Part shown: positions 407 through 45,974 of the stretch, piece after piece
How positions within the stretch are numbered: position 1 is the stretch's first letter
Layout: each line of letters begins with the position of its first letter
Assembly (NCBI GenBank): GCA_021613535.1
Contig: CP075494.1
Span: 14,446,001 to 14,510,000 of the forward strand
DNA: 64,000 nucleotides
Source: Adineta vaga
Taxonomy: Eukaryota > Animalia > Rotifera
Direction: 5' to 3'
The notes under the pieces: generated by a model
The model's input: the letters and a program-made list of their open reading frames with translations, nothing else
Databases searched by the model: none
What the model was told of the DNA's origin: nothing
Translations under genes and position numbers: made by a program

Positions 407-2835
407 GACATCGAACTTATTGATTCTTCACAAAATCGCATCGATCGATCAGTTGTTATTCTATAAAACAAATGTTAACAGTCTATCTAGTGATAAATCA
501 TAAACTATCCTTTTTATTCGACAAATACATAGCCATTCGTATATTTTCGTTCTTTGTAAAGAATATTACTAATATCTTAATCTCTTTCATCATTCTTCTG
601 TTGTTTTAGTCGGTGCGTGTGTTTTTTAATTTAATCACAAACAGACGAAATACAACGTATGCTAGCGTTAACCTTCATAGTTGATAATAGTAAACGGAGT
701 AAGCAAAAAACCAGCGGTAGAGTGCTGGATGGTGCAATGACAATGTAATAGAATGCAAGCTGTTTGTACTTGGAAAAAGATGCAGTAACAACAGCAACAT
801 TGAGGAAGGAGAGAACGTGAAAGAACTTTTTTTCTTTCTTTCTTTCTGTTGCATCGAGTCTCTTTTGTTCTGTTCGTGGAACGAATGGATCTGAATGTAT
901 TTCTCTTTCTCTCGATCGTATACACGCCATCGTTGTTGTTATGTGATGGCAGTGGCTCATTCATTCTCGTTTACAGGGCAATGCCTGCTGTGTAAGCGCG
1001 CGCTTACGCGCTTCTCCTGTTGAGTAAGTTGTTGTATTTCTTTTCCTTCGTTCTGTCGTTTTTGCGTTTTTTTCTTTTCTTCGTTTTTTTTACTATTTGC
1101 GTTACAAACTACCATGTATGAGAATGTGTGTATACGTAGTTGCAATAGCAGTATTAACCCGTTTTTGTTACAGAGCGCCCACTCAACAGCAACGACGAGA
1201 AGAAAACGTATATAATGCACGTAAGAATACGTACGAAGAAACGACAGTCGATTCGATAACTACTGTGCGATTGGATCTTTATCACAACGTCAGTAGCAGC
1301 AACAGCAAGAACAACAACAACAACAACTATATTTCAACAAGTAATACAAGAAGATTTAAATTCTATACGTATGTATATGTATATATGAATTAAACAATTG
1401 AATCGTAGGGAAAGAAGATTTTTGCAATCACGTTTATTACATTATTGACTTTCTATATGATACCATAGCAGGAAAAAAAAGGTTATCATCATCATCAACT
1501 GAACAAGCAGCATGTCTTAACTCTATACTATTGTAAAGGTTAACTCTGATCTGTTACGGCATACCATTGATTCATTTATTGATCGAAAGTCAATCACAAT
1601 ACATATATACAGAGATATATGGATATACGACGCACTCATCTCAATTACATTGCTCTCTATTATCCTATACTTAACGAAATATAATCACATGATAATATTT
1701 CGTTCTTTTGTAGATCCTTTTTTCTTCGTTTTTTTTCTTCATCTATCGTTAACTTTCATTTACCTGATGGTCGTGATGATGATAGACCGATAAAACGACC
1801 GGTAGAAAGAGAGAGAGAGAGAGACGAAGTATAGCAAAGCTTAGATAAAATTGCAGCTGACGCATGTGCTTGCAATGGCCTTGTATCGTTTGGATTTTTT
1901 CTTTGCATGATCATCACATCAAATTCGTTTTTCGTCATCATCATTCACTCCCTTTTTTTTCATTCTGTACTCGAATAATCATTGTCGATTCTCATTTCTT
2001 TGCTTTGGTCGACACACATACACACATAGAGGACTGCTTCGTTTCTCTCTATTCGCTTCGTTTCTCTTCTATTTTTTTTTATTATTATTATTCTCCTTGC
2101 TCTATCGGTAACGACCCGACAACATCGTCGTTTTTATCTCGACTCTTAGTGAAGGTAGACGATTTTAAGGGGCTTGATGAGATGGCATACGAGAACGCAT
2201 ATATATATATATATACATATACATATTGATAAAGGACATCGCCATCCATCATATTAAATAAAAGGAAAAAAGCAGTTGATGAGCAATAGTCCTTCGATTC
2301 TTTCGTTGCTTTGGCGCCAGTCGAAACTAATCGAATCAATCTGGACACAACGGCAAGCTTATTGAAATTTGGTAAAGTATATGTATGAAGAATGAAAACC
2401 GATTTGTCGTCTTGAATCTGACTAGTTTTGCAATCTGCTCGATAATAAAGTGCAGATGCTGGCTTTTCAGATACCTAACGCAAATCGGAAACGACGATTA
2501 AATCAAACTAATCTTCAATATTTTATTTTATTTTATTTTTTTTATTTCTTTCATATATTGTATTTTGATTTTCAAATAAATTATATTCATTAAAAAACCA
2601 AAGAATTTCTTCAATTGAGACTACAAATTTCATCAAACGACAAGTGTCGCCATCATCGTCGCTCGGTTGAAATTGATTTTGATTGAGAGAAAAAACTTTG
2701 AAAAAGAAAGACGAATGACGTTCGTTCGATAAGCAAATCAATTAGTTTCATCATCGCGACTCTTTTTTTTATTGCCACGATTGACTTCACTGTCATTTTT
2801 CATGTCGATTAGTTTTTGATTGATTTGCTGTAACC

Positions 2836-5090
2836 ATGGTCTTTCTGATTTCAGTACTTGAAAGTTATTTTTCATTTATTGATCGAATTGAACCCAAGAT
2901 TCTATTCTATGGATTATTATCATTCACATGGATCCTTTCCATTTGGGAACACTATCTTTCCTATCGACAAGTATGTTTGATTCGATACTTCTTCTTTCGA
3001 TTGAGGTTCTAAATATATTTAGTATCGTAATTATAAACGTCATCAAACTGTACCAACAGAACTGGCTGATGTAATGACAAATGAACAATTGGAAAAATCT
3101 CGGCGATATGCAATGGATAAAATACGTTTCAATGAAATTCGGTCAATATACGGTGAAATCGAAGGAACAATTTTATTGTTAATTGGTATTTTACCATGGT
3201 TATGGTCAATATCAGGAAGTATCTTATCGAAATACGGTTATTACGACTATGAAATTCTACAATCTATTGTGTTTGTTACTCTAATGATGTTTTACTCTAC
3301 CATCGCTGGAATTCCGTGGTCATATTATTATCATTTTGTTCTCGAAGAGAAACATGGATTCAATAAACAAGTAAAAAAGTTTAGATTTTCAAATGAAATT
3401 TTATTTAAATGATTGAATTTATTTAGACACGTAGTTTTTTCTTTAAAGATACAATAAAAAAATTATTAGTTTCATTTGCTTTAACTGTGCCGATCTTCTG
3501 TCTTCTATTAAAAATAATTCAAATTGGTGGTGATTACTTTTTCATCTATGCTTGGGCATTTTTAGCGACGATGTCATTAGTAAGATTTTCTTTGATACAA
3601 CGAAATGATTTGTCTATCTATGAGATAGGCCATTGCTGTTATTTATCCAAATTATATTGCACCATTGTTTGATCATTATGAACCATTACGTGAAGGAGAG
3701 TTACGAAAAAGTATTGAACAATTAGCTGATAAAATCAATTTTCCATTAGCAAAAATCTTTGTAGTTGAAGGTAAGTTGTTACTTAGCAATATTTCGAAAG
3801 AAATTGTGATATTTCACTTTATTGTTTAATTAAATATAATTTTTTATAAACTTTAAGGATCGGCTCGATCTGCGCATTCAAATGCTTATTTCTATGGATT
3901 CTTCAAAACAAAACGTATTGTTCTCTATGATACACTTATCAAAGGATACCGTATTCAAAAAGACAATGATAATGCCGTTAATAAAGAAGAGAAATCCAAA
4001 GATGAGACAGACGATGATCAAGTAACAAAGAAAAAAATTGATAAAGGCTGTGAATCAGATGAAGTTCTTGCTGTTCTATGTCATGAATTTGGACACTGGT
4101 CACTTAGTCATAATATTATCAATCTTACGATTTCATTTGTACGTATAGTACTTTCTTCATGAAAAATGTTTCGTTAATATCCGTTGAGAGAAATTCTGAA
4201 GTATAGGAGCTATACATTAAATCATAAATAGTTATCTTTTTAGTAACCATGAATGAGAGTATACCTTGAAAAAGTATCGTTCGTATAATCATCGACCGTG
4301 ATAGATTGAAGTACGAAGGTTGAAACTGATTATGAATATTTGACAACTAATGAAAAAGATTTCTATTAGAATATCAAAAATATGCTTCTTAAATTGTCCT
4401 GGACAGATGATGAGTAACGCAAAAAACAAATGATAATTAGTGATACACGTGTCATAAGGATGAAATTTAATATCGATCATTTCACGGTTGATGCTCGAAA
4501 ATATCCATAATAATATTGATTTAATTTGACATCTATTTTTAATATCCATCACACTTAAAAAGTATGATAATGACGTCATTCATATCATAGGTTGACTAAC
4601 AAAAATACTGATTTACGTTGATTGAAGGTTTTTTCTCGTATTTAACTTTCCTATTTCTAGATCAACTTATTTCTGATCTTTACTATCTTTGCTGCACTCT
4701 CCAAACGTACGGGTCTTTATGATGCATTTGGTTTTACACATATTCGACCAATTCTAATTGGTCTGTTAGTTATTTTTCAATATGTTTTATCACCTTATTC
4801 CGCAGTAAGTAACAACAAAAATTATCAATTTTATTTCTCTTTTTTCTTTCTCTCTACATTTATAGATTCTTTCATTGGCTTTAACGGTTTTATCTCGTCG
4901 TTTTGAATTTCAAGCTGATCATTTTGCTTTTAAACTCGCTCATGGTGAACCATTAAGTCGTGCATTGAAAAAACTCGAAATGGATAATATGACATATCCA
5001 TATTCCGATTATCTCTATGCTAAATATCATTATTCTCATCCAACTGTTCTCGAACGTCTCAAAGCAATTAAATCAACGAAACAAGATTAA
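2836..5090 (+). CDS. ZMPSTE24: CAAX prenyl protease 1 / zinc metalloprotease STE24 (M48), multi-exon
   Basis: Spliced translation gives MVFLISV...WEHYLSYRQ, FVLEEKHGFNKQ, VVEGSARSAHSNAYFYGF, the HExxH motif LCHEFGHW (~4077-4100), SRRFEFQAD and YHYSHPTVLERL. Introns are GT-AG, including one of ~520 bp (4140-4660). Confidence 0.95.
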
Positions 5091-12009: not shown

Positions 12010-12287
12010 CCCAGGACGATGGTTCCTGGAAGCAGTATTCCACTTATTTCCGGTGAAAACCTGCAGGACACCTATGTTTTCCGCGTCGGATACCATGGGA
12101 AAATGCCTGGAATCCTGCTGAGGGAACCGGTGATCGTATCAGACTATCGGTTATGGCAGGTTCTTGTCGGTTCCCGATAAAATCGGATTAATCCGATCAC
12201 CGGATTCGATCACCGAAATACTGCTTCCATGAGATCTTCGGAAGGTCCTAGAACTAGACGGTTCCGGACCGGACTGTTTGACATGGG
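12010..12287. mobile_element. Short non-autonomous DNA transposon (MITE), CCCAG-terminus family
   Basis: Left end CCCAGGACGA, degenerate right end TTTGACATGGG. Shares the internal motif GGAAGCAGTATTCC and its reverse complement with the adjacent element, in inverted orientation. Confidence 0.55.
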
Positions 12288-12370
12288 ATACACTGTTCAA
12301 CAACAGATATAACATTTGAATCATTAATAAATGTCTTAATAAAAGATCCAATCTTTTTTAATTGCACATC

Positions 12371-13597
12371 CCCAGGTCGAACAATCCGGCGCGGAACTGG
12401 CCGGATCCAGAACATTCCGCCTATTACATGGAAGCAGGATTCCAGGCCGGAATCTTTCGGACCAAATCCGTTGATTTCCGTTCATATCCGCACGTAAAAT
12501 CTCGGAAACTGACGGAAAAAAACCGAAACATTCCGACCAGGAACCGCATATGCGGCATCCCATAGGAAACCAATAGATCCTACAGGAACATTCTGACGGT
12601 CGGAAACCCAAATTTTCCGTGATATTACCGCTTCTTTCCTTCCTCGTCGCATTCCTTCACTAATACCGCGTAACCCCCAAACGTGTAGTTTAATTCATCC
12701 ATCACCTTCAACAAACCTGCATGCCCAAACAACACCGCCTAAGACTGGCCTCTCGTCTGGATTTTAGAGCCGACTAACATCGGATTCTTAATCCAATCGT
12801 GGACACACGAAAAACAACCCTGGTGATGCGTCTGTTCGTTATATTTTGAGCCGATTTTAATCCTCTCAAAAATCCTATCACGAACTGACCAAAATAAGTT
12901 TTGAGAATTTTTCCAAAGTCATTCGTATATGGGAAGATGGAGTTGAGATATGATCTCATACAGTTTTGGACTATTTCAATAGTCAAAATAGGTTAATAAG
13001 GTGATATTAGTTGGACAAATAGAGAGGTATGATTTATTTCGTATTATAATAATATTATGATATAATTTTTTTAGAAGATATATTATTCATGAATTAGCGT
13101 GATGTGGGTAAGTCATGATTTTTTATGCGTTATATTTGAATAGTCTTCTTGTCTTTTATGTTGTAGGGTGTTATTTAGAACTTCACGGAAAGTATTTCGT
13201 TAGGTAAGTGCGTAGATGTTGCTGATTTTGATTGTTAACTTTGTTAACTGATGTTTGGATTTTATTTAGGTACATCGTCTCTCGATCTGTGAATTTTGTT
13301 TTAGTAAGTTAAAATTATATTGTGATTTACTCCGGCTTTTGTCGTAGGGGAATAATTTTTATGAAGTTTCGATCGGTCGGTTCCGGCTGGTTCCATTGAG
13401 AACCGTGTCCATGGCTTTACCCGGAATGAGACGGTTCCAGTTCCGAGAAATTCCGGTCTGGAATACTGCTTCCATTTTCCGGTCCTTTTCCTTTCGGCTC
13501 CTTTGGGATCTGGTCGGAACTGGACGGAATGAGGCAGAAAAGAGGTGCTTTCCTGCGGGTTCCGATCGGTTCCGGAGGCCGGAACGTTCGTCCTGGG
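12371..13597. mobile_element. 1.23-kb non-autonomous DNA transposon with imperfect TIRs and 2-bp TSD (CMC/EnSpm-like)
   Basis: Begins CCCAGGTCGAAC and ends GTTCGTCCTGGG, flanked by TC on both sides (12369-70 and 13598-99). GC-rich CCGG/TCCGG subterminal repeats surround an AT-rich core. Confidence 0.75.
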
Positions 13598-13704
13598 TCT
13601 CGCATCGTCAATTGTTCAGCTTCCACCGTACGAATTATCTAAAATATGAATGAACGTTGATGACATTTCTGACATTAAATATAGTGGAAAAGAAAACGAA
13701 AAAA

Positions 13705-13925
13705 CTATCGGATCTTATCGAATCCGCTGGGGAATTCGCCGGAAGTTACCGGAATCTTGGCAACAGGATTCCGACAAAAAAGGCATCGGATGTCGAAATA
13801 ACTAGGATCCTGTCGAAACCTCTGAGAATCTGACACTTTCCGACATCCGGGACCGCATATCGAAATCCTGTTGCCAGGATTCCGGCGAATTCACATCGGA
13901 TCCGACAGGGTGAGTTCGACCTGGG
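13705..13925. mobile_element. Truncated copy of the CCCAG-terminus element family
   Basis: Ends GTTCGACCTGGG. Internal inverted repeat GGAATCTTGGCAACAGGATT / AATCCTGTTGCCAGGATTCC. Another terminus fragment lies at 14241. Confidence 0.55.
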
Positions 13926-14970: not shown

Positions 14971-15529
14971 GCTCAAGTCCATGAACTCTGATGAAATGAA
15001 CTAAAGAACTATGCAAAAGTTTATCATTTCACCGAGCTCAATCTTTTAAAAATATTCTTTAAAAATAAAATGATCTTTTTCAGCGGTTTCTCTATTCGAT
15101 TATGTAGAGATATCACGCAGTCATCAACTGATAGTATGTAGGGTTATTTGTATACCCTTGAGCATAGAAGATATCTTTATATAATGAGACTAGCAGACAG
15201 GGACGGGCCGAGGATTTTATAATATCCGAAAATTTAACTTCAAAGCATGGGTCCCGCATGAAACTTATGAAAGATGATAAGTGACCCAAATGGTGACTTT
15301 TTACCAAAAACATTTTGTGATTGAAGTTTGTGAAAAAAAATTTTTTTAACTGCTACACCCAACTTTTGTTTTTGGTTTAAGCAGTACTCAGATTCTTAGA
15401 ATGTTATCGGAATCTACATCGAATTTCATCCACAGATTTCAAGTCTTTCAGAAGCTATCAAGAGATATATTCAATACGACTTGTTCAATCCCTCTTTCTA
15501 TTCGGACAGCTTTCGAAACTAAATATCAT

Positions 15530-15880
15530 ATGAAATATTTCTTATTGTTGTATAGGTATATATCGATATCTGATTAAGAGTAAGTAATATTTCAAATACG
15601 AAATGAAACATTCTCTATTATCATTTAGGTTTGTATAGATATGTGGGTAAAAATGAGTTATTTTCAAACAATATGTTAAATATTTATTGTTATCATTTCG
15701 GTTCATAGCCATATCTGATTAAAGTTCAGTGATATTTTGAATTTTAGATTAAATATTTTCTATTGTCATTTAGGTTCAGGTCGAAGTCTAACGAAATGTG
15801 AGTTATATTTTATATAGAAAACTAAATATTTTCTTCTTTTATATTTAGACCGATCTATATTGCAGAGAAATGGTAAGTGG
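15530..15880 (+). repeat. Degenerate ~73-bp tandem repeat, 5 units, each shaped as acceptor + 24-nt exon + donor
   Basis: 24-nt segments start at 15556, 15629, 15701, 15774 and 15849. They are bounded by AG and GTAAGT/GTGAGT in units 1, 4 and 5, while the sites are mutated in units 2 and 3. Confidence 0.6.
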
Positions 15881-15901
15881 GATATTAGAAACAAAATAAG
15901 T

Positions 15902-16173
15902 AGAATGATTTTCTTTTTATATCTATAGGTTGATTTGTACACGTATTCAAGTACTGCAAGTGCGTCTGTTTATATTACAAGGTCAAAAACAGACTGAGAA
16001 AGTGAATTAGGTTAGGGCTGAATTGAGCCAATCGGCAGCAAGCAAAAAGCGTGATTCGACTCTAGCTTAATTCACTTTTTCGGTCTATTTGAGAGCTTAA
16101 CATGAACAGACGCACTTGCAACACTGGAATATGTGTACAAATCAACCTAGATATAAAGAGAAAATAATTTTCT
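15902..16173. repeat. ~270-bp fold-back (palindromic MITE-like) element
   Basis: TAGGTTGATTTGTACAC...TGCAAGTGCGTCTGTT...AAAGTGAATTAG is mirrored by TAATTCACTTT...AACAGACGCACTTGCA...GTGTACAAATCAACCTA. Confidence 0.8.
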
Positions 16174-18996
16174 GAAAAACCATTTAACACACCTTTTATG
16201 TCAGACTGAACCTTATTTTTGTATAGAATAATGAAGAGTTCTGTTAGGTTTTAACAGAACCCTCTATGAGCCAGAACCTTTTTGTGGGTTCTGAATTTTA
16301 CCAGCGGGCCGAACCCCTAAAAAGGTTCTGGAAAACTCCTTTTTTATTTTCGGATTTGAATTTATAAGATGCATATGTCAAATTAATCAACATCATGTCA
16401 TATAAATTTGGTTGTGTAGGACCATATTGACGTAATAAATTTGCTGATAAATAACGAAATTATGGAACACACGATAATAAACAAATCAATTGATTACAAT
16501 ATATTGAATTATCAACGAGTATAAATATTCCATTGAGCTATATGAGAAAGTCGTAATGTATTGTGTATATTTCGGAAAGTATAGAAGCAATTGATCTCAA
16601 ATTGTGTCGAAGGAAAATAATATGAAAGTGTTCCACAACAGATTTTTAATGTTGAGAGAATCTGAAATAAAACATAGTTTCTCGTAATATTAACGTAAGA
16701 TACGATCAAATGAGAATTACATAGGTTTCGAAAAAAACAGTCGAGTATTCCAGAAGGTCTTCTATTGTAAAACTAGATTTACATAAGTGAATAGACAACA
16801 TTATTCTATAGAAGAATAAAATAATAGGGATCTATCGAAAGACGATAATGAGAAGGATATATCACATGATGCTTTAAACAAATATTACCTTCAAAGACAA
16901 TGATCAAAAAAGATTAGAACACTTATGATAATTAAATGAAAATAGAGTTGCTCTAGTAAATTACTGCTTGTCTATAAATAAGAAACAAAATGAGTAGAAA
17001 TATATATGAGATTTACGGAATATTCATTTTGAATTTTGTTCTCATTTCGTAAGTCTAAATATGGAAGTTTTTTTTATCTCTTTTGCCATGAAAGTAGAAA
17101 AGAAAAACTTCTTCTACGCAAGACATCAACATTATTATTTGTTTTCATTAGAATTTAAAACATTGAAAAAAGAACGAACAATCATATACTCTATAATTTT
17201 GGTCAAAATGTATATGTTTTCTGATAGAAGAGAAAGCTTTTATCTGGCAACATCAAGTATTAAAAAATGAAGAAAAAGAGTTTATTGAATTTTTTGTATG
17301 GATTCAATAGTTATTTACCTAATTATGACAACGGATAATATCCGTTTACAATCGATTATTTTAAAATTTACAAGCTCGTCTTTGAATGACGTTTGATAAT
17401 GTCTTCATTTTTATCTTGGTTATGATGCAACACTCGTTTGAATTCTCATTGTTTGGATGCTGTGAAATTGTGCAAAGGTTACACGTAACTATTATATGAA
17501 TTCGATATTTTTTACAAATATATTTAGAGCATTGCAATCAAAATTGATTAAATCAAACCAAACAAAGTTTATCATTAATTTTGTTATCTCTTTTCGATTA
17601 ATGTTAGATATTATTTGTTAATTCACGTCAGATATAATCCTATCTTTGTTAAAATATCAATATTATATGAAAGAAAATTTCCATTCAGTGTAAATATGAT
17701 AATTATATACTTCATCAATATATTCATAGTCAAAAAGTCAGTGATCAATATGCTATTGGTTCAATGAAACAAATGTCATGATACATGCGTCGATGGTGTA
17801 TTTTAGAAGAATGTTCAGGACAATCGATGAATTCAGAAAGGCGGTTCACATTGATTTCTCAAATAAACAAAATCGTCAAATTAGATAAAGAAACTATTTT
17901 GGATGTACATTCAACAACTAAACGTTCATTACCATGTGTAATTATTTGAATGCACAGCATGAAAAGCTTCGATAGATCTAGTATAGTCGGTTTCATCGAC
18001 ACCGATGATGAATATATTCAAAAAGAAATATGTGTAAACTTAAGACAGAACGACTTTACCACTCGCGAATTAATCATACTCTTGTAATTCTCAGAATGAT
18101 AATGAATAGGAAAGGGAATATAAGTACGGGTCACTATGTAAACATGAAACACTCTTTGTGTTTACAAATGCATTTCGCCGTCTTTCATTGAAGTTCGAAT
18201 ATATCGGAAGTTGGATCCAGATGCGATTTATATCCTAAATTGTGTCTCTACACATTTGTTAGTTGAGACTGAGATACACTCTTTTCTCTAAAACTTTCTT
18301 TTTTTATCTTGAAAGATGTACGAATACAAAATATCTTTCTATCATTAGACATCAAACGTCAAATAAAAGATGCAACTAAATAAAGTTGTCAAACTCGTCA
18401 TCCACTTTATCTTGACGTCAACCCCAACTCTCTAACGTTACAAATATAGTAACGATTTGTGAGACACTCAGACTTTAAACTAAACTCTCTATTATGAGAA
18501 ATATTCAAAATAAAGTTCGAAAGAATATTTTGCTACGTTTTCATGCACAACAGAATGTTTAATAAATGATTTTCCAGTCGTTCCCAATAGATCAGCGATG
18601 GGAATAAGTCCAGCGGACTCATTAAAAGGCTCATAAGACGCATCGACGGTCGTCCTTCTTCTTCATAACATTTCCACTATTGAAAATTTTTCAGAAGACA
18701 TTATATTAAGAGTAGACAGTTTCACAAAATATCGTATGATACCCATCAAACTTCACCTAATAAATTATAGTGCATTTCAAACACGGGATTTCGCTATTTC
18801 GGACATACACAAATCATCAACTTAGATGACGAACACATCTCACACGGTCGGGAATCGAGAGCTTGAAACAAAACACGTTATTGTACGATAAATACGACTT
18901 CGAAGCACAATGTATATTCATTTCTCACCACATCGGTTTCCTCTAAAATAATTCTCCAGCAAAGAGCACTAAAAAACAATGTCCCTCGAGTCCAAA

Positions 18997-21442
18997 CTAC
19001 CACGTCAACCTATTTCCAAAAGTATTTCGGAGATAGCTTCTTTCTCGAGCACCGATTCCATTGATCCCGAGATTTAGTGTGGTGAGTGTCTACAGAGGAG
19101 AGATAGTACGGATGTGTCAATTAGGACAAGAGCGAATGAGTATTACCGTGTTTATTCGCAAGGCATCACCAATATGTTGTGCTCCTTGATGGCCGATTCG
19201 ATTGCACCGGAGATCTAGTGTGGTGAGTGTCTATAAACGAGAGAATATGGATGTGTCAATTAGGACAAGAGTGAATGAGTATTACTGTGTTTATTCGCAA
19301 GGCATCAAAAATATGTTGTGCTCCTTGATCACCGATTTGATTGCCCCCGATATCTAGTGTGGTGAGTGTCTATAGAGGAGAGAGAGCATGGATGTGTCAA
19401 TCCGGACAAGAGCGAATGAGTATTACTGTGTTTATTCGCAAGGCATCACCAATATGTTGTGCTCCTTGATCACCGATTTTATTGTACCCGATATGTAGTG
19501 CGGTGAGTGTCTATAGAGGAGAGAGAGCATGGATGTGTCAATCCGGACAAGAGCGAATGAGTATTACTGTGTTTATTCGCAAGGCATCAAACATATGTTG
19601 TGCTCCTTGATCACCGATTTCATTGTTCTCGAGATTAAGCGTGGTGAGTGTCTATAGAGGAGAGAGAGCATGGATGTGTCAATCAGGAGAAGAGCGAATG
19701 AGTATTACTGTGTTTATTCGCAAGGCATCACCAATATGTTGTGCTCCTTGATCACCGATTTTATTGTACCCGATATGTAGTGCGGTGAGTGTCTATAGAG
19801 GAGAGAGAGCATGGATGTGTCAATCCGGACAAGAGCGAATGAGTATTACTGTGTTTATTCGCAAGGCATCACAAATATGTTGTGCTCCTTGATCACCGAT
19901 TTTATTGTACCCGATATCTAGTGCGGTGAGTGTCTATAGACGAGAGAGAGCATGGATGTGTCAATCAGGAGAAGAGCGAATGAGTATTACTGTGTTTATT
20001 CGCAAGGCATCACAAATATGTCGTGCTCCTTGATCGCTGATTTCATTGTTCTCGAGATTAAGCGTGGTGAGTGTCTATAGACGAGAGAGAGCATGGATGT
20101 GTCAATCAGGAGAAGAGCGAATGAGTGTTACTGTGTTTATTCCCAAGGCATCAAAAATATGTTGTGCTCCTTGATCACCGATTTGATTGCCCCCGATATC
20201 TAGTGTGGTGAGTGTCTATAGAGGAGAGAGAGCATGGATGTGTCAATCCGGACAAGAGCGAATGAGTATTACTGTGTTTATTCGCAAGGCATCACCAATA
20301 TGTTGTGCTCCTTGATCACCGATTTTATTGTACCCGATATGTAGTGCGGTGAGTGTCTATAGAGGAGAGAGAGCATGGATGTGTCAATCAGGAGAAGAGC
20401 GAATGAGTATTACTGTGTTTATTCGCAAGGCATCACAAATATGTTGTGCTCCTTGATCACCGATTTGACTGTACCAGAGATTTAGTGTGGTGAGTGTCTA
20501 TAAACGAGAGAATATGGATGTGTCAATCAGGAGAAGAGCGAATGAGTATTACCGTGTTTATTCGCAAGGCATCACCAATATGTTGTGCTCCTTGATGGCC
20601 GATTTGATTGTACCCGAGATCTAGCGTGGTGAGTGTCTATATAGAGAATATTTCTTTCGAGAATGTGGGTAAAGCAATCGGAACTTTAGAGTAATGTTTT
20701 TCAATTAGATATAGCATTATACAAGAGGTGTTGCGGTAGTGTGTGAAAGTGTTCGATCTGGGTTCATGGAGTGAAAAGAGAAATCGTTGCTTGTCTGATG
20801 ATTCCTGAGGTAATGTGCGAATCGTAGGATGATTAGAGTGAGTAGTGTACTGAAGGTAGTGATACTTGTTTATTTCGAATGGTGTTGGATTGTTATTTTT
20901 AGATTTGGTTTGCGAAAGATCATATTGAATCGGGGCAGAATATAAAACAATTCACTTTATTTTATTCGGTGGGTTCATAGATAGCTGTTGCATTGTTTAA
21001 TAGTTGCATGGAGACATTTGTTTGAAACGGGAAAGGTGTTTTTATGCGGCGGTTTTATTCTTGTGTGGCGCATGAGTGCGCGCTGAATAAGATATATATT
21101 ATATGTGCATAGATAGAAAAGAACAGGTGAGAGGAAGTGTGGTTTTAATAGCATGAGTCAATATTGTGTTTGGTTGACTCATGGAAATTGCTTCGGAATT
21201 GTGAAATTTGTTTTTTCTTTAAGTGAACTGATTAAGTTAGATATTGCGAGGCTCATATGTGCTTGAACGGATGAGAAAATAGGTAAAGCACTTTGCAAAC
21301 TTACTTGATATGGATGATAAATATTCAGAATTTGATTAAAACGTTGGCAAACATTTTGCATTGAGCAAAATAGTGTAAAAGCAGACAGATGATCCAAAAT
21401 TCGATAGACGAGTTCAATCGGTAATGTTGAAAATGTGTACAT
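18997..21442 (-). CDS. F-box + ribonuclease-inhibitor/NLRC3-type LRR protein (~384 aa), one LRR per exon
   Basis: Exon 1 (21442-21305) reads MYTFSTLPIELVYRILDHL...VCQRFNQILNIYHPYQ (F-box) then GTAAGT. Eleven 84-nt phase-0 exons follow (20636-20553, 20497-20414, 20356-20273, 20215-20132, 20074-19991, 19933-19850, 19792-19709, 19651-19568, 19510-19427, 19369-19286, 19230-19147), with consensus TLTxLxLxxNxIGDQGAQHIxDALRINT. The terminal exon 19089-18997 reads TLTTLNLGINGIGARERSYLRNTFGNRLTW*. All are stop-free with canonical GT-AG. Confidence 0.88.
19050..20640. repeat. Tandem array of 139-141-bp units (84-nt LRR exon + 55/57-nt intron), 11 full units plus a partial one
   Basis: Directly visible periodic recurrence of TGTTTATTCGCAAGGCATCA...GTGCTCCTTGAT...GGTGAGTGTCTAT...GGATGTGTCAAT. 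Confidence 0.98.
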
Positions 21443-30555: not shown

Positions 30556-32211
30556 TTATTTATAAGAAGGGAGATACATATAGAAATCTTTAGAATGTAC
30601 CATTGATTTATCAAAAATTAAACGTTCGATTTTGTTACAGTTAAGACGTGTGGCATCACGAGTAAAATTCTCTGTGACAATTTCTAAAGGTTCATAATCA
30701 ATCTTCAGCTCAACCAGACGTGGTAAACGTGTGTTTGTATCGACAAGGAATTGTTCAACATAATCAATACATTCGGAATAAATGTTAAGATTAGTTAGAT
30801 TAGAAAATTTCACAAGTGATGAAATCTGATCATTTTTGTTTAATTGACTTAATCGTTTGTATTTTTGTGGAATTCTATTGAAAAAAAATAGATCAGTGAG
30901 TAGAGGAAAGGAAGAAGCAATCTGGATGAAGAAGTCATGTTCGAAAGCATAATAGATATCCACTATTGATATATTATGGACATGCATAAATAAACCTCCA
31001 GGAAAGCTGCTGCTTATGGTATATAAATCATTTAATGTATAGGAAATCGAATAAATATGAGATCGAGCTTTGCCACGTGGATATTGATCAATGTAGCAAA
31101 TACATTGATGAGATTTTCCATTGTAGAACGTGTGTTGAATATTATCAAGCTTCATCCAGTTTGTTTCATTGATAACTGTAGTATAAGTCATAATATTAAA
31201 CGTCAACGTTTGACGTCGTGGCAAGTATAGAAGAATTTCATTATTTAAATGAGTATTGTCGATGAATGCCGATCGATTTCCAACAGTCAGACGTAACATT
31301 AAATCTTCAAGATATATCATTCGACGAAGAAGCGATATCACTTCACTGTCATACTCTTTTGTTTCACTATGTGACGTAAGCGAAAAACTTCTGATAGTAT
31401 TTATTACCATATCACTGGGTATCAATTTAGTAGTACAAATATTAGAAATTTGAATGACGAGTCGATGTAAATAGGTGAGACGACCATCAAGTAAACACAA
31501 ACAATCATCAAACGTATCTACACTAATACGTAAATGAACAATACTTGATGAAAAACAAATTGTTGAAGGTAAATCAGCTATTTTCAATCGTGCAGGATAT
31601 CGTCGATCGCCTGGTGAACCAAAATCTAATTCAATTAAACTTTTGAACATAGAAAATATAGGAGCAAATACAGTCGTGCTTAGATCAATCAATGATTGCG
31701 TTTTTTCAGGATCATTAATTGAGAGTGTCAAGTAAGTGATTTGTTGTTTGAAAATTTGTACAAAAGGTGATTCATCTAAATAGATTTAAAGAATATTATT
31801 AAAGTGAAATATCATACAAATCTTTATACCGATAAAGTGTCGTATTACAAATTCTGGTTCGACTTTCATGACTGTGAGCTTCTGTAAACGAGGATAATGA
31901 CCAGCAGAGAGAATCCGATCCATTGAAATTGATTCAAAAGTTAAACATTCAACAAGTTCATGTATTTGAGGTAATATATTCAAACAGAATCGATCAAGTA
32001 TCGGATAAGTTAATGAACAATTATTAGGGTGATTGTTTGATTCTACCAATTCGATGGAACGAGTATAAGTCATATTACAGACCAATTTATTAAATCTTTT
32101 ATTAACACCCATAAATGAATAGAGTACATCGATTTTATTTAATTTATTCCAAATATTATAGATCATTTCATTTGGAAGATCCATTATGCTTGTAGCATTG
32201 TAATGATGCAT
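30556..32211 (-). CDS. F-box protein with degenerate LRR-like C-terminal region (2 exons)
   Basis: SIMDLPNEMIYNIWNKLNKIDVLYSFMGVNKRFNKL F-box. An intron at ~31776-31829 joins it to the 391-aa ORF (DCLCLLDGRL, FPLLTDL, TRLPRLVELKIDYE). This architecture is typical of an expanded rotifer F-box family. Confidence 0.85.
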
Positions 32212-32465
32212 GTTCAGTTCAATTCGAAAAGACAATTGTGAATGAATCGAACGATGTATTGTTCTTATATAACAATAAAACAAAAGATAGTGTGATACGC
32301 GAGTCATCTGCATATTTCCTTTTAATAAAGACGACATCTAACTTAAATAGAAAAATTGAAAAGACTTATTTGAGAAAATAATTATAAAGAGTATTTCATA
32401 AGTTTCGAGCTCCTTTTTTTGCTTTTTCATATTCCATTGTAGACTGATTTTCAGCAGAGATTATT

Positions 32466-41316: not shown

Positions 41317-44300
41317 TTATGGTTTGCAAAATGTTCGAAGATGATGTTGAACATTGATGAGAATCAAAAGAGGACATAGTAAACAAAAGCTACCAAATAT
41401 ATAAGTTGTCTTTTCACCAATTGACCAATATGCTAGAATGATTAAAAATCAGTTATTCAAAACAAAAAGCTTATGAATCGTCTTACCAAATGATGCAATT
41501 AATGGACCAATAGCTCGAGCAAGTGCTTGTAAACTTCGAAAGATACCTAAAATAGCACCTTTTTCATTCTGCAAACCTACACATACATAAATAAATCAAT
41601 GAAAATTTCAATTAGATTAGAAAATTCTCTCAACCATATTTGGATGCAAAACTATTGATGACATTGATCACCAAACTTGATGCTAAATAATTCGAAATAT
41701 AGAATGATAAATTTTTAAGAAAAAAAACGATTCATTTACCAAAAGAGAACAGAATTAAACCAACCCATAAGATCAGTTTTGTTTGAGCAACAGCTAATAT
41801 CAGAAACGATGGAATTAAGATGGAAATTCCCTATAAAAAAAATAACAGTTTATGTACTTATAGATTACAGACTTTGACTGCAAACAAAAGTTAAATGACG
41901 TAAAATTACATATGCAAAAAGTAGATAGAGAAAAAGAAAGAAAACGATAAAGATAGGTAACCTATTGCCACGACGTTTTTTTTCTCTTATCTCTCACATC
42001 CTTTCACAGCAAACAACAAAGTAACGGATCAGTTTTTTTTCTAAATATTTTTCTCATCTATTCGACACGAACAAGAGAATGTTTCAAACGTCTTTGTTCA
42101 TCTTCTTTCTTTCTTTTACAATCATATCTTCAATCCCATGTCCACCAGAATGTATCTGTAAACCAATCAGTATACCAGATTTAGATGTTAATCGAATGTC
42201 TTATGAAATGGATTGTGATATTTCAAAAAGTGGCAAACTTGTTTATCGAGCTGAAGAATGGGCAATTGAAAGTGATACAATTCCCGAAGATAATGAAGAT
42301 GCTGATGAAAAGAGTGATTATGGTCTTTCGATTAATTTATCTAATTCACCATTACTGAAAAAATTTACTAATCAAACTATTGATTTAACTGGTTTTTCAT
42401 TTTTTATTTACACTCTTTCCTTAACAACTCAAGACGATAAATTTCTTCTCACACCGAATTCTTTCTATTCAAGTATTTATGAAGATTTACAAATATTAAA
42501 TTTATCTTCATGTTGTAACAAACAAATACCAAAACAATGTGCTGAACTCTTTCGACCACTTACAAAACTTAAAATACTTGATTTAAGTGGATCGAATATG
42601 TATAAAACATGTTTAAATACTCCAGGTATGTTATTTTTCAAATTCTATTATCGATTTAGTAACATCATAAAGAGAGAAAAATAGAAAGGTTAGATATTTA
42701 TCGATTTATGATAACCTTTTTTTTCCTTTATCAATGATATTTCAATACAAAGTATAACTAAATCTTTGTTTATTATTTAGATACGATTTCCTCATCACTT
42801 CGTGATCTTATCTTACGTAATAATATTTATGATAGTACAACATTTACTTCCTCAAGTCAATTATTCAATGGTGTTAAAAAATTGACCGGTACACTTGATT
42901 TACAAAATTCACGCTTTCAAACCAATGCAGATTCAATAGAAAATTGTCTATTCGATCTATTTTCATCAATTACAAAATTAGATTTATCAAATATTCAATT
43001 TGAACCACCATCAAATGACACATATGCATATTTAGAACGTTTACTTAAATGTAGAAAAATCTCAAATAGTAAACACTTGAATGAATTATCTTTACGTTAT
43101 TTAAAACTTCAACATTTACCCGAATGGTTTACAGATGAACAATTTCCCGATTTGAAACAACTTGATTTATCTAATAACTATTTTCATTCAATTGATATTC
43201 AAACATTTAGCAAACTTCATCAAGTCTCATTAGCTTATAATCCAATTGAATTCAATCAAATTATTTGGCGTAATGATACAATTTATAAATCAATCGATTT
43301 ATCTTCAACAGTTCGTTATTCAAAATTCGATTTAAAACATCATTTATCAAGATTATTTCAATTAACTAAAGTTATTAATTACAATGGCAATCAAGGTGAA
43401 GATCTAATTGATATAAATCAAATTCCTATTGAAGTAGATTATCTAACCGATGAATTTACTTTGAATATTTCTCGAACGAATATTAAATCATTTGAAGTTA
43501 GTTTTAATGATATACGTCGATTGGATATAAGTTGGAATTTATTAACTGAACTTAATCTATATGCACAAGATCAATTATATTATTTAGATTGTTCAAATCA
43601 ATATCTTAAAAATGTAACTTTAAATCCAAATCTATCGACATTGAAAGAATTACGTTGTTCGAATAATAGTTTAACAACAGTTGGAAATTTTTCTGCAGTG
43701 AAAAAGGAATATTTGGAGATTATTGATTTATCGAATAATTCAATTACATCATTGAATGATTTCTTTTCGAAATGTAACAGTCGATATTTACGTAAAGTCA
43801 ATTTTCGATCAAATTCTCTAACTATTATTCGATCATTTATATTTCATGATGATTTTATTCAACTAGTTGAAATCGATCTATCATGGAATAAAATTTGGAA
43901 AATCGATCGAAATGCATTTCAAGCACCTAATCTTCAAATTCTTGATTTAACCGGTAATCCGTTAAAAACAATCGAACCAAAAGCAATATTTACTGCATCA
44001 TTACGATACATGACCATTTTCAATACGAATAAAGAATTAACTGATCGTTGTTCACAAGTGAAAACAAAAGATTCTCTATTATCAATGTATATCAATTGGT
44101 ATACACAAAATGGAACTTATATAAAACAAAAACAAATTAAATTTGATAAATGTTTGAAAAGTTATGTACCGGAAACGAAAGCCAATCGGTTTATCAAGAA
44201 TACGAAATATGTATTTGGTTCCTATGCTTTATTTATTGTTCTTGGTGTATGTGTAAGCGGAATTATCTTAGGTGGAGTGTATGTTTATCGTAAAAATAAC

Positions 44301-45974
44301 TTTCCATTTTTGGAAAGATTTCGACGATATAAAAAAATAGATCGAGATAATTTAGTAGAAAATGAAGTCGCAATGGATGAACGTAATCGAGAAGATGATG
44401 AAGTTGTTATGAATAGGGAAGAACCACCTTTTAATAAATATAGTGGTATTCCGACAGATGTTTAATTCGATTTTCTTTTCTTCATTTTTAATAAAAAGAT
44501 TATTTTTGATTTAATGCGCGAAGGATTCTATTCGGTTGTACAATAAACTAAAGTTTTTCTTACGGTTATTGCTGCTGTAATTTCTTTTCCATGTGGTATA
44601 CGTCGGACATAACCACCTTGTACTAAAGCCATACATAAACCCATTATAAAAAACATTTTCCCTTGTTGCATACTATTTCAATAGAAAGATTTCTGGAACA
44701 AAACTGAATTGACTTTCTTTCTCGTACCTATTCCAATTAAATCGATTATAAACGAGAAAAGTGATCGTAAATTCTAAGCCAGCAAATACAATCATGTAGG
44801 CAAAACTTGCCAAACCAAGTCGACGTAAGATAAGAATATCTAATTTATATTTTAAAAAAAAGTAGATTCAAATTGGAGACTGTATTCTTTACATACCATG
44901 ATTTGATTTAGTTTTATGAATAGCACTAAATTGAAATAAACGCCATGGAATTATTGCATTAAAAACATCATTAATCGTTGTTTTTCTTCCATTCTATCAT
45001 AAATATTGTTTAGATATTGAATACATCAAGTAAAGTAAAACGTTATAAAGTCATACTCGTTTTGAAATTGGTAATGTTTCTGGACAACATCGATAAATAA
45101 ATCCAATGTTAATCAATGATAAAACTAATGAAACACATGCAGGAACGATAAAAAAGCTAACTGAAGAGGATGACCAATACATCACACCTAATTGACTACA
45201 AAGTGCACCAAGTAATGGTCCAAAAATAAAACCAAGTGAGAATGCTGCACCTATCCATGCCTTTCAAAAACAAACGATCTAGTTTTTCTTTCATACGTAA
45301 AAGAAAATCTTTCTCTTGTTACTTTACCATTGCACGATTTCGTTCAGTTTCTGTTGTTGTATCTGATACAATAGCTAATGTAATTGCAACATTAGCTTTT
45401 GATAATCCACTAACAATACGTGCAATCATAAAAATTGTTAAATTAAATGATATACACCATAGACCATATGATAAAGATATACCAATCTAGAAGCAATGGA
45501 AAACTAGTTGTATCAAATTTATATTTGTGTTTACCATAGAGATAAGAAGGACAGGTTTTCGACCATAACGATCAGATGCAATGCCACATAATGTAGATGA
45601 AAAAAATTGAAGAAGAGAAAAGAGTGAACCAATAATACCTATAGAAGAATTATCTTTATTGTCAAAAATATCTAGTATTTTGCTGGACATACCACCAAAT
45701 AAAACGGAATTCCATTTGGCATCATTAGGTGCTCCAGTTAAATCTTGAATGAATTGAACAAATGACATTGTTTTCTTGTATAATGTATCCTTTTACAGAA
45801 ACAATATTGAAATATAGAAAAGATCGTATTCTTTTATCTTACATGATTAGAATCAGTTTCACTACCATAATAAGTTAAAATTTTAGGTAATAATGGTAAA
45901 ATTATAGTAAATTCCAAAAAATCAATAAGAATAGAAATAAACAATATGTTGATTATATTCGATTTGACTCCCAT
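41317..45974 (-). CDS. MFSD10: Major facilitator superfamily transporter MFSD10 (TETRAN)-like
   Basis: LIDFLEFTIILPLLP, GIASDRYGRKPVLL, AWIGAAFSLGFIFGP, FAGLEFTITFL, QQGKMFF, GYVRRIPHGKE | 2.7-kb intron | GISILIPSFLIL, EKGAILGIFRSLQALARAIGP, ...RTFCKP*. Confidence 0.88.
42079..44465 (+). CDS. Type I membrane LRR protein (signal peptide, LRRNT, many LRRs, TM, short tail), nested antisense in the MFSD10 intron
   Basis: MFQTSLFIFFLSFTIISS signal, CPPECIC, and LRRs such as LKQLDLSNNYF, LEIIDLSNNSI and LQILDLTGNPL. TM is ALFIVLGVCVSGIILGGVYVY. One intron at 42626-42780. Confidence 0.9.

What the first reader, a model, noticed from the sequence alone, without database searches (positions are those of the whole stretch)
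19050..20636. Variation is focused on ligand-face codons while introns are almost homogeneous
Seen: residues 4-11 of the cassettes read TLDLGYNQ, TLNLWYSQ, ALHIGYNK, TLDIGGNQ, TLNLENNE, ALDIGYNK, ALHIGYNK, TLNLENNE, ALHIGYNK, TLDIGGNQ, TLDLRCNR, TLNLGING. Positions 6 (D/N/H), 8 (G/W/E/R), 9 (Y/G/N/C/I) and 11 (Q/K/E/R/G) change mainly at first and second codon bases with fixed third bases. The helix (QGAQHI.DALRINT) and most introns differ at only a few nucleotides. Established: the x positions of LxxLxLxxNxL are solvent-exposed on the concave face. Inference: diversifying selection, or targeted conversion from donor cassettes, acting against a background of concerted homogenisation.
Basis: partly seen in the sequence, partly recalled or inferred. 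Interest (0 to 1): 0.78.

Follow-up and report, generated by a model that had tools for sequence, protein, structure and literature searches.

The report
Rotifer F-box gene shuffles binding cassettes
A bdelloid rotifer gene joins an F-box to twelve near-identical one-exon leucine-rich repeats whose four predicted binding-face positions change about five times faster than introns and silent sites, likely because selection keeps varying what the protein grabs while copying between repeats keeps the rest uniform.

Summary
All 12 cassette peptides and the fixed third bases are as stated. The array is the 3' part of an intact 384-codon minus-strand gene: an F-box exon, a 668-bp intron, then 12 ribonuclease-inhibitor-type LRR exons (eleven of 84 bp, a longer last one) with 55-57-bp phase-0 introns. 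Nearest named relatives are Adineta vaga proteins. Codons 6, 8, 9 and 11 carry 13 amino-acid changes on 9.9 sites and no silent ones, against 0.22 per site in introns plus silent sites. This survives a calibrated gene-conversion null and fixed-site codon tests. A blind site test is borderline (p 0.04-0.10), and helix codon 21 is also fast. Introns are no more uniform than the helix. Units are recombinant mosaics. No evidence for targeted donor conversion. The pattern is known from brown-algal ROCO, Tetrahymena LRR and Podospora HNWD genes; ten paper searches found no such description for bdelloids. An immune ubiquitin-ligase role is inferred, untested. The scan's earlier notes held nothing on this array.

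The parts
21305..21442 (-). F-box exon, 46 codons, starting at ATG
   Evidence: Pfam PF00646 26.3 bits, cut-off 20.5; translation
20637..21304 (-). 668-bp phase-0 intron, GT..AG
   Evidence: joint 20636-21305 in runs X16 and X18, RNA by guess; ends
20553..20636 (-). LRR exon 1 (x = D,G,Y,Q)
   Evidence: Pfam LRR_6 23.0 bits
20414..20497 (-). LRR exon 2 (N,W,Y,Q)
   Evidence: joint 20497-20553 in X18
20273..20356 (-). LRR exon 3 (H,G,Y,K), identical to exons 7 and 9
20132..20215 (-). LRR exon 4 (D,G,G,Q), 1 nt from exon 10
19991..20074 (-). LRR exon 5 (N,E,N,E)
   Evidence: Pfam LRR_6 23.7 bits
19850..19933 (-). LRR exon 6 (D,G,Y,K)
19709..19792 (-). LRR exon 7 (H,G,Y,K)
19568..19651 (-). LRR exon 8 (N,E,N,E), 5 nt from exon 5
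19427..19510 (-). LRR exon 9 (H,G,Y,K)
19286..19369 (-). LRR exon 10 (D,G,G,Q)
19147..19230 (-). LRR exon 11 (D,R,C,R)
18997..19089 (-). terminal exon 12: LRR strand (N,G,I,G), C-terminal cap and TAG stop
   Evidence: similar cap in A. vaga P0005
19090..20552 (-). span of the eleven 55-57-bp phase-0 GT..AG introns between LRR exons; with each exon they form the 139-141-bp repeat unit

Best explanation
This is an intact bdelloid F-box gene with twelve one-exon LRR cassettes, likely an SCF ubiquitin-ligase substrate receptor whose exon-plus-intron units are likely kept alike by unequal crossing-over and gene conversion while selection likely favours new residues at the four predicted binding positions. 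Shown: gene anatomy, F-box-to-LRR splice joint in RNA-like runs, recombinant mosaic units, excess amino-acid change at codons 6, 8, 9, 11, and a large family of related cassettes. Inferred: because every intron is phase 0, any gain, loss or swap of a whole unit keeps the frame and rewrites one rung of the binding surface; the F-box would dock on Skp1 and the bound target, most likely a pathogen or other foreign protein, would be tagged for degradation. Confidence in selection plus homogenisation alone is about 0.75; in the immune-ligase role about 0.5.
For: Minimum changes: codons 6,8,9,11 13 N on 9.9 sites, 0 S on 2.1; the wider motif set 3,4,6,8,9,11 14 N on 13.9; neutral 16 on 73.1 (12 on 53 intron, 4 on 20.1 silent); binomial p 1e-5 and 8e-5. 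Fixed-site omega 2.7-5.9, p 0.006-0.0004. Rate-matched neutral conversion model: 0 of 4000 draws reach 11 at those 8 columns; best four codons chosen afterwards p 0.001-0.011. Positions equally tolerant across bdelloid relatives but off that face (14,15,22,25,26,28) show 2 changes on 14.0 sites against 11 on 10.0 (p 0.002). Within-protein variation is higher at 6/8/9/11 than at exposed helix/loop sites in 37 of 45 bdelloid arrays. 83 of 153 site pairs are four-gamete incompatible; identical exons carry different introns. DNA runs lay 3061, 3681, 431 and 1107 contigs on the gene; of the 10 unmatched inserts listed for run X2, the 4 in exons all cover codon 8. 29 of 53 bdelloid-named relatives carry a like F-box. 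Models of relatives give F-box helices plus beta/alpha repeats matching NOD2 and ribonuclease inhibitor. F-box genes selected in the substrate-binding part are described for C. elegans (PMC4334554, passage).
Against: One array, few events, about eight distinct cassettes. Blind M1a/M2a-like test is only p 0.10 and 0.04 (which supersedes the 0.04 and 0.019). N at x codons against S inside the same block 4-11 is p 0.05-0.12. A first simulation with too high a rate and all three bases counted gave best-four p 0.06-0.27; with the neutral rate doubled the best-four p is 0.10-0.22. Helix codon 21 scores as selected (posterior 0.99), so variation is not confined to one face. Other codons show omega 0.6-0.9, weak purifying signal. 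Tree-based tests are distorted by recombination. 8 of 45 relatives do not show the x-site excess. The F-box has Pro where the five closest relatives have Arg near its end.
Confidence: 0.62

Rival explanations
1. The variable blocks are old, diverged alleles or imports from paralogous arrays, retained while flanks and introns are homogenised; the excess reflects deeper local ancestry or ectopic conversion more than new selected mutations.
For: The N,E,N,E block carries two linked silent changes at codons 4 and 5. Within-block N versus S is only p 0.05-0.12. Hundreds to thousands of related contigs exist as possible donors. Intergenic exchange is reported for ROCO (PMC3341825 section 15) and suggested for HNWD (PMC13449251 passages).
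Against: Third bases of codons 6-11 are fixed in all 12 exons, whereas paralogous inserts differ at third bases too (read by hand, table 5c; those rows are selected for divergence). Residue triplets are shared with 262 bdelloid repeats at chance level (6 vs 4.2, p 0.24); an earlier p 0.023 on 73 repeats did not hold. Retention of only these blocks would still need selection.
Confidence: 0.2
2. Neutral or relaxed evolution: a young tandem expansion drifts, x positions merely tolerate change, and short introns and silent sites are constrained by splicing so that the neutral rate is underestimated.
For: Non-x codons change at about the neutral rate (0.18 vs 0.22 per site). With a doubled neutral rate post-hoc clustering is not significant. 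No run on record as RNA holds the gene (see Tried and rejected).
Against: Even at doubled rate the fixed columns reach 11 in at most 0.2% of draws, and 5 or fewer third-base changes then has p about 0.03. Equally tolerant positions 14,15,22,25,26,28 are quiet. Intron (0.23) and silent (0.20) rates agree. No stop or frameshift in 12 of 12 exons.
Confidence: 0.12
3. A targeted diversifier (programmed cassette conversion, retroelement-style adenine mutagenesis, or regulated exon skipping) writes the variable block.
For: Changes at bases 1-2 with fixed third bases recall DGR variable regions (recalled). 12 of 14 variable columns in codons 4-13 include A (hand count). RNA-like joints 19089-19286 and 19230-20273 do not match the plain exon order.
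Against: Eight third-position adenines are invariant; A/G-rich codons are expected for polar residues; no separate template copy in the window; no reverse-transcriptase ORF noticed by eye among 85 ORFs (not scanned). The odd joints have 21-36 letters a side among near-identical paralogues and cannot be assigned.
Confidence: 0.06

Closest known systems
Brown-algal ROCO LRR exon arrays (Ectocarpus, Saccharina; PMC3341825 abstract and sections 15, 22, 27; PMC11378527 passages)
   Same: One LRR per exon, uniform exon length and phase, exon shuffling, four positively selected sites on the concave side, proposed immune receptors.
   Different: Here 84-bp phase-0 exons of the 28-residue RI class behind an F-box, no ROC-COR; tiny introns copied with the exon; no stray or inverted cassettes found in the window; animal host.
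Tetrahymena 90-bp-exon LRR genes (PMC6564038 passages)
   Same: Intragenic exon+intron tandem units detectable at DNA level, about 10 exons, clonal expansions, unequal crossing-over proposed.
   Different: 90 bp phase 2 versus 84 bp phase 0; REP retrotransposon link not seen here; 'positive selection' does not occur in that main text. That paper says it knows no other eukaryote with such uniform exon-intron repeats.
Podospora HNWD NLRs with high internal conservation (PMC13449251 passages and section 12)
   Same: Repeats 80-100% identical, four hypervariable positions under diversifying selection, concerted evolution by unequal crossing-over, possible intergenic exchange.
   Different: WD40 with NACHT, non-self recognition shown; here LRR with F-box, an intron in each unit, no nucleotide-binding domain, function untested.
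Nematode F-box expansions (PMC4334554 passage citing earlier work) and FBXL-type SCF receptors (recalled)
   Same: F-box plus variable substrate-binding region, large family, proposed defence by degrading foreign proteins.
   Different: Diversity here is built inside the gene from exon cassettes rather than only by gene birth and death.
PRDM9 zinc-finger array (search listing and abstract starts)
   Same: Coding minisatellite with positive selection at recognition residues.
   Different: DNA-binding; no introns in the unit (recalled).

Membership tests
F-box/LRR (FBXL-type) protein | N-terminal F-box | tested here: met
   PF00646 26.3 bits, cut-off 20.5
F-box/LRR (FBXL-type) protein | LRR domain in the same transcript | tested here: met
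   joint 20636-21305 in two RNA-guess runs, 29-30 letters a side; same architecture in P0005 and others
F-box/LRR (FBXL-type) protein | Binds Skp1 and recruits substrates to SCF | not tested
   no complex job or assay
RI-like / NLRC3-like LRR | 28-residue beta/alpha repeat LxxLxLxxNxI plus helix | tested here: met
   sequence; LRR_6 23.0 and 23.7 bits, cut-off 23.4, for 2 of 3 exons scanned, exon 12 no hit; models and fold match are of relatives
NLR (NACHT/NB-ARC) | Nucleotide-binding domain before the repeats | tested here: not met
   F-box exon splices straight onto LRR exon 1; 384 codons in all
ROCO-type LRR exon array | One LRR per exon, uniform phase | tested here: met
   84-bp exons, phase 0; ROCO has 72 bp, phase 2
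ROCO-type LRR exon array | ROC-COR GTPase domain | tested here: not met
   stop follows the LRR cap
ROCO-type LRR exon array | Alternative splicing of LRR exons | tested here: inconclusive
   out-of-order joints cannot be told from paralogues
High-internal-conservation hypervariable repeat sensors (HNWD-like) | Repeats 80-100% identical with a few hypervariable positions under diversifying selection | tested here: met
   0-15 differences of 84 nt among exons 1-11; selection tests, borderline
High-internal-conservation hypervariable repeat sensors (HNWD-like) | Repeat-number polymorphism among strains and intergenic exchange | not testable with these tools
   no genome held; short contigs do not span the array
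Diversity-generating retroelement | Template repeat, reverse transcriptase, adenine-specific change | tested here: not met
   no second copy in window and 8 invariant third-position adenines; RT looked for by eye only

The most novel reading that the evidence does not exclude
Bdelloids keep a genome-wide pool of hundreds of interchangeable in-frame LRR cassettes that are swapped within and between arrays without meiosis (by conversion during DNA repair, or by exon skipping), giving an asexual animal a combinatorial intracellular immune repertoire wired to F-box, ADP-ribosyltransferase and caspase effectors.
Probability: 0.15. Interest if true: 0.85.

Novelty: new variant of a known kind. Interest (0 to 1): 0.55.

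Why it matters
How long-term asexual bdelloids keep pace with parasites is an open question (recalled). A large family of F-box/LRR genes built from frame-preserving cassettes, with selection on a few binding positions, would be a concrete route to new recognition surfaces without sex, and it can be tested with long-read genomes of clonal lines and existing infection transcriptomes. It also shows that uniform exon-plus-intron LRR arrays are not confined to ciliates and brown algae. The evolutionary logic itself is already known.

Tried and rejected
No genome held, so no search for identical blocks in other arrays. Metagenome pattern scan returned 123 stretches; none of the 121 loci stored matched an LRR exon by tblastn. 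Pattern scans of viral and prokaryote contigs: 0 hits; protein scans gave one short F-box contig, L122, with no LRR exon seen. No RNA holder listed on record; the four runs laid are RNA by guess and also hold unspliced intron pieces. Contig depth was not used as copy number. Cross-species block sharing fell to chance with more data. One search's blind site test was under-optimised and redone; its fixed-site tests were confirmed. One search's simulation was mis-calibrated and redone. P0016 was dropped from the sharing test as a near duplicate of P0009; exon 12 was used only for codons 1-13, and left out. No flanking direct repeats of 20 nt or more within either flank searched separately near the gene; the two flanks were not compared with each other. 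No complex prediction run. Paper searches found no description of these arrays; PMC3846280 passages mention LRR family expansion in A. vaga and a possible defence role; PMC11258130 main text has no hit for leucine, LRR, F-box, NLR or ubiquitin; PMC12220480 has one table row. No supplements were read; genome-paper supplements and subscription papers may cover this family. Earlier-findings look-ups by sequence, words and relatives were empty.

Full report
Observation. The minus strand of 19050-20636 is a tandem array of period 141. Splitting it at the AG/GT sites gives eleven 84-bp exons, a twelfth terminal exon and eleven phase-0 introns of 55-57 bp. Codons 6, 8, 9 and 11 vary only at bases 1 and 2, and hold all 5 three-letter columns of the exon. 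The introns are not special: pi is 0.073 (0.034 for units 2-9) against 0.047 for framework codons.

What it is. 668 bp upstream lies a 46-codon F-box exon. Two runs that are RNA by guess show it joined to LRR exon 1, and one shows an exon 1-2 joint. The spliced frame is open for 384 codons. The closest named proteins are Adineta vaga P0002 (93% over the F-box) and P0005, an F-box with LRRs and a similar cap; window genes and two earlier notes on this genome fit a bdelloid. The family is large: 431 to 3681 contigs per DNA run lay on the gene at 85% or better, and 10-26 contigs per run carry another letter at one F-box position, which suggests tens of paralogues but is no copy number. 29 of 53 bdelloid-named relatives from Adineta and Rotaria have a like F-box. 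Models of two relatives, not of this protein, put repeat positions 4-6 or 4-8 in the strand, 9-11 in the following loop and 14-26 in the helix (mean pLDDT 54, repeats 60-86, mean 77, repeats 86-98); the first matches NOD2 and ribonuclease inhibitor folds. That strand and loop form the usual ligand surface of this class is recalled knowledge.

Is it more than chance? Counting each distinct allele once, codons 6/8/9/11 have 13 amino-acid changes on 9.9 sites and none silent; the wider motif set 3,4,6,8,9,11 has 14 on 13.9; introns have 12 on 53 and silent sites 4 on 20.1 (p 1e-5 and 8e-5; with exon 12 left out 1.5e-4 and 7e-4). Correcting for choosing the best four codons afterwards gives p 0.006-0.017. 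A forward gene-conversion model matched to the intron rate reached the observed count at those columns in 0 of 4000 draws, and for the best four codons in 0.1-1.1%. Fixed-site codon models give omega 2.7-5.9. Positions just as tolerant across 262 bdelloid repeats but off that face are quiet here (2 on 14.0 against 11 on 10.0, p 0.002). The same four positions are more variable than exposed helix and loop sites in 37 of 45 bdelloid arrays, and 9, 8, 6 and 11 lead in the 20 most internally conserved of 158 RI-like arrays of mixed origin.

Against. The blind site test gives p 0.10 and 0.04. N against S inside block 4-11 gives p 0.05-0.12. A mis-calibrated first simulation gave best-four p 0.06-0.27, and doubling the neutral rate gives 0.10-0.22. 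Helix codon 21 (G/C/F) scores as selected, perhaps from recombination. Other codons show omega 0.6-0.9. About eight distinct cassettes carry the signal.

Mechanism. Exons 3, 7 and 9 are identical yet exon 7 has a different intron; 83 of 153 informative pairs are four-gamete incompatible; end units have the most distinct introns. This is what unequal crossing-over and conversion between units would leave (inference). With phase-0 introns every unit is a frame-safe module. Selection then likely keeps new residues at the binding rim while the rest is overwritten. Inserts in paralogous contigs that do not match this gene fall in introns (6 of 10 rows listed for X2) or over codon 8 and its neighbours (4 of 10), never in the helix alone (25 further rows were not shown), so the variable block is family-wide and introns differ between arrays. 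Donor-directed conversion could not be tested without the genome; nothing found requires it. The SCF-receptor and anti-pathogen steps rest on domain architecture and the nematode precedent and are untested.

Known systems. Brown-algal ROCO genes have one LRR per 72-bp exon, shuffling and four selected concave sites. Tetrahymena has 90-bp phase-2 exon-intron LRR arrays. Podospora HNWD genes have near-identical repeats with four hypervariable positions. This gene works like these in its evolution but is not an NLR or ROCO. LRR family expansion in A. vaga is noted in print; ten searches found no account of the cassette architecture, the F-box link or selection on it.

Verdict. Real, correctly read, and best explained by diversifying selection on a recombining cassette array. 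A new variant of a known kind, of moderate interest, rising if shuffling proves active in clonal lines.

Noticed in passing
proteins P0078, P0210, P0223, P0279, P0189, P0187, P0270: The same 28-residue LRR arrays occur in bdelloid gene models with ADP-ribosyltransferase, caspase or B-box domains, suggesting one sensor module on several effectors; gene-model fusions not excluded.
   Followed up: partly
window 30556-32337, minus strand: A second, unrelated F-box-like gene (weak PF00646 hit, E 0.008) with a long second ORF and no Pfam hit.
   Followed up: partly
window 12200-13900 and 15500-16350: GC-richer palindromic and short tandem repeats resembling non-autonomous transposon relics.
   Followed up: no
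window 42025-44465, plus strand: A conventional long-exon LRR protein with a likely transmembrane segment, unrelated to the array.
   Followed up: no
codon 21 of each LRR exon, e.g. 20574-20576: Helix position that is mostly Ala/Gly/Ser in relatives (224 of 262 repeats) reads G, C or F here; may alter packing between repeats.
   Followed up: partly
window 19090-19285 and 20498-20552: Introns 1 and 10 share a 2-bp shorter form and introns 10 and 11 share other variants; exons 1 and 11 differ by only 4 nt, hinting at exchange between the two ends of the array.
   Followed up: partly
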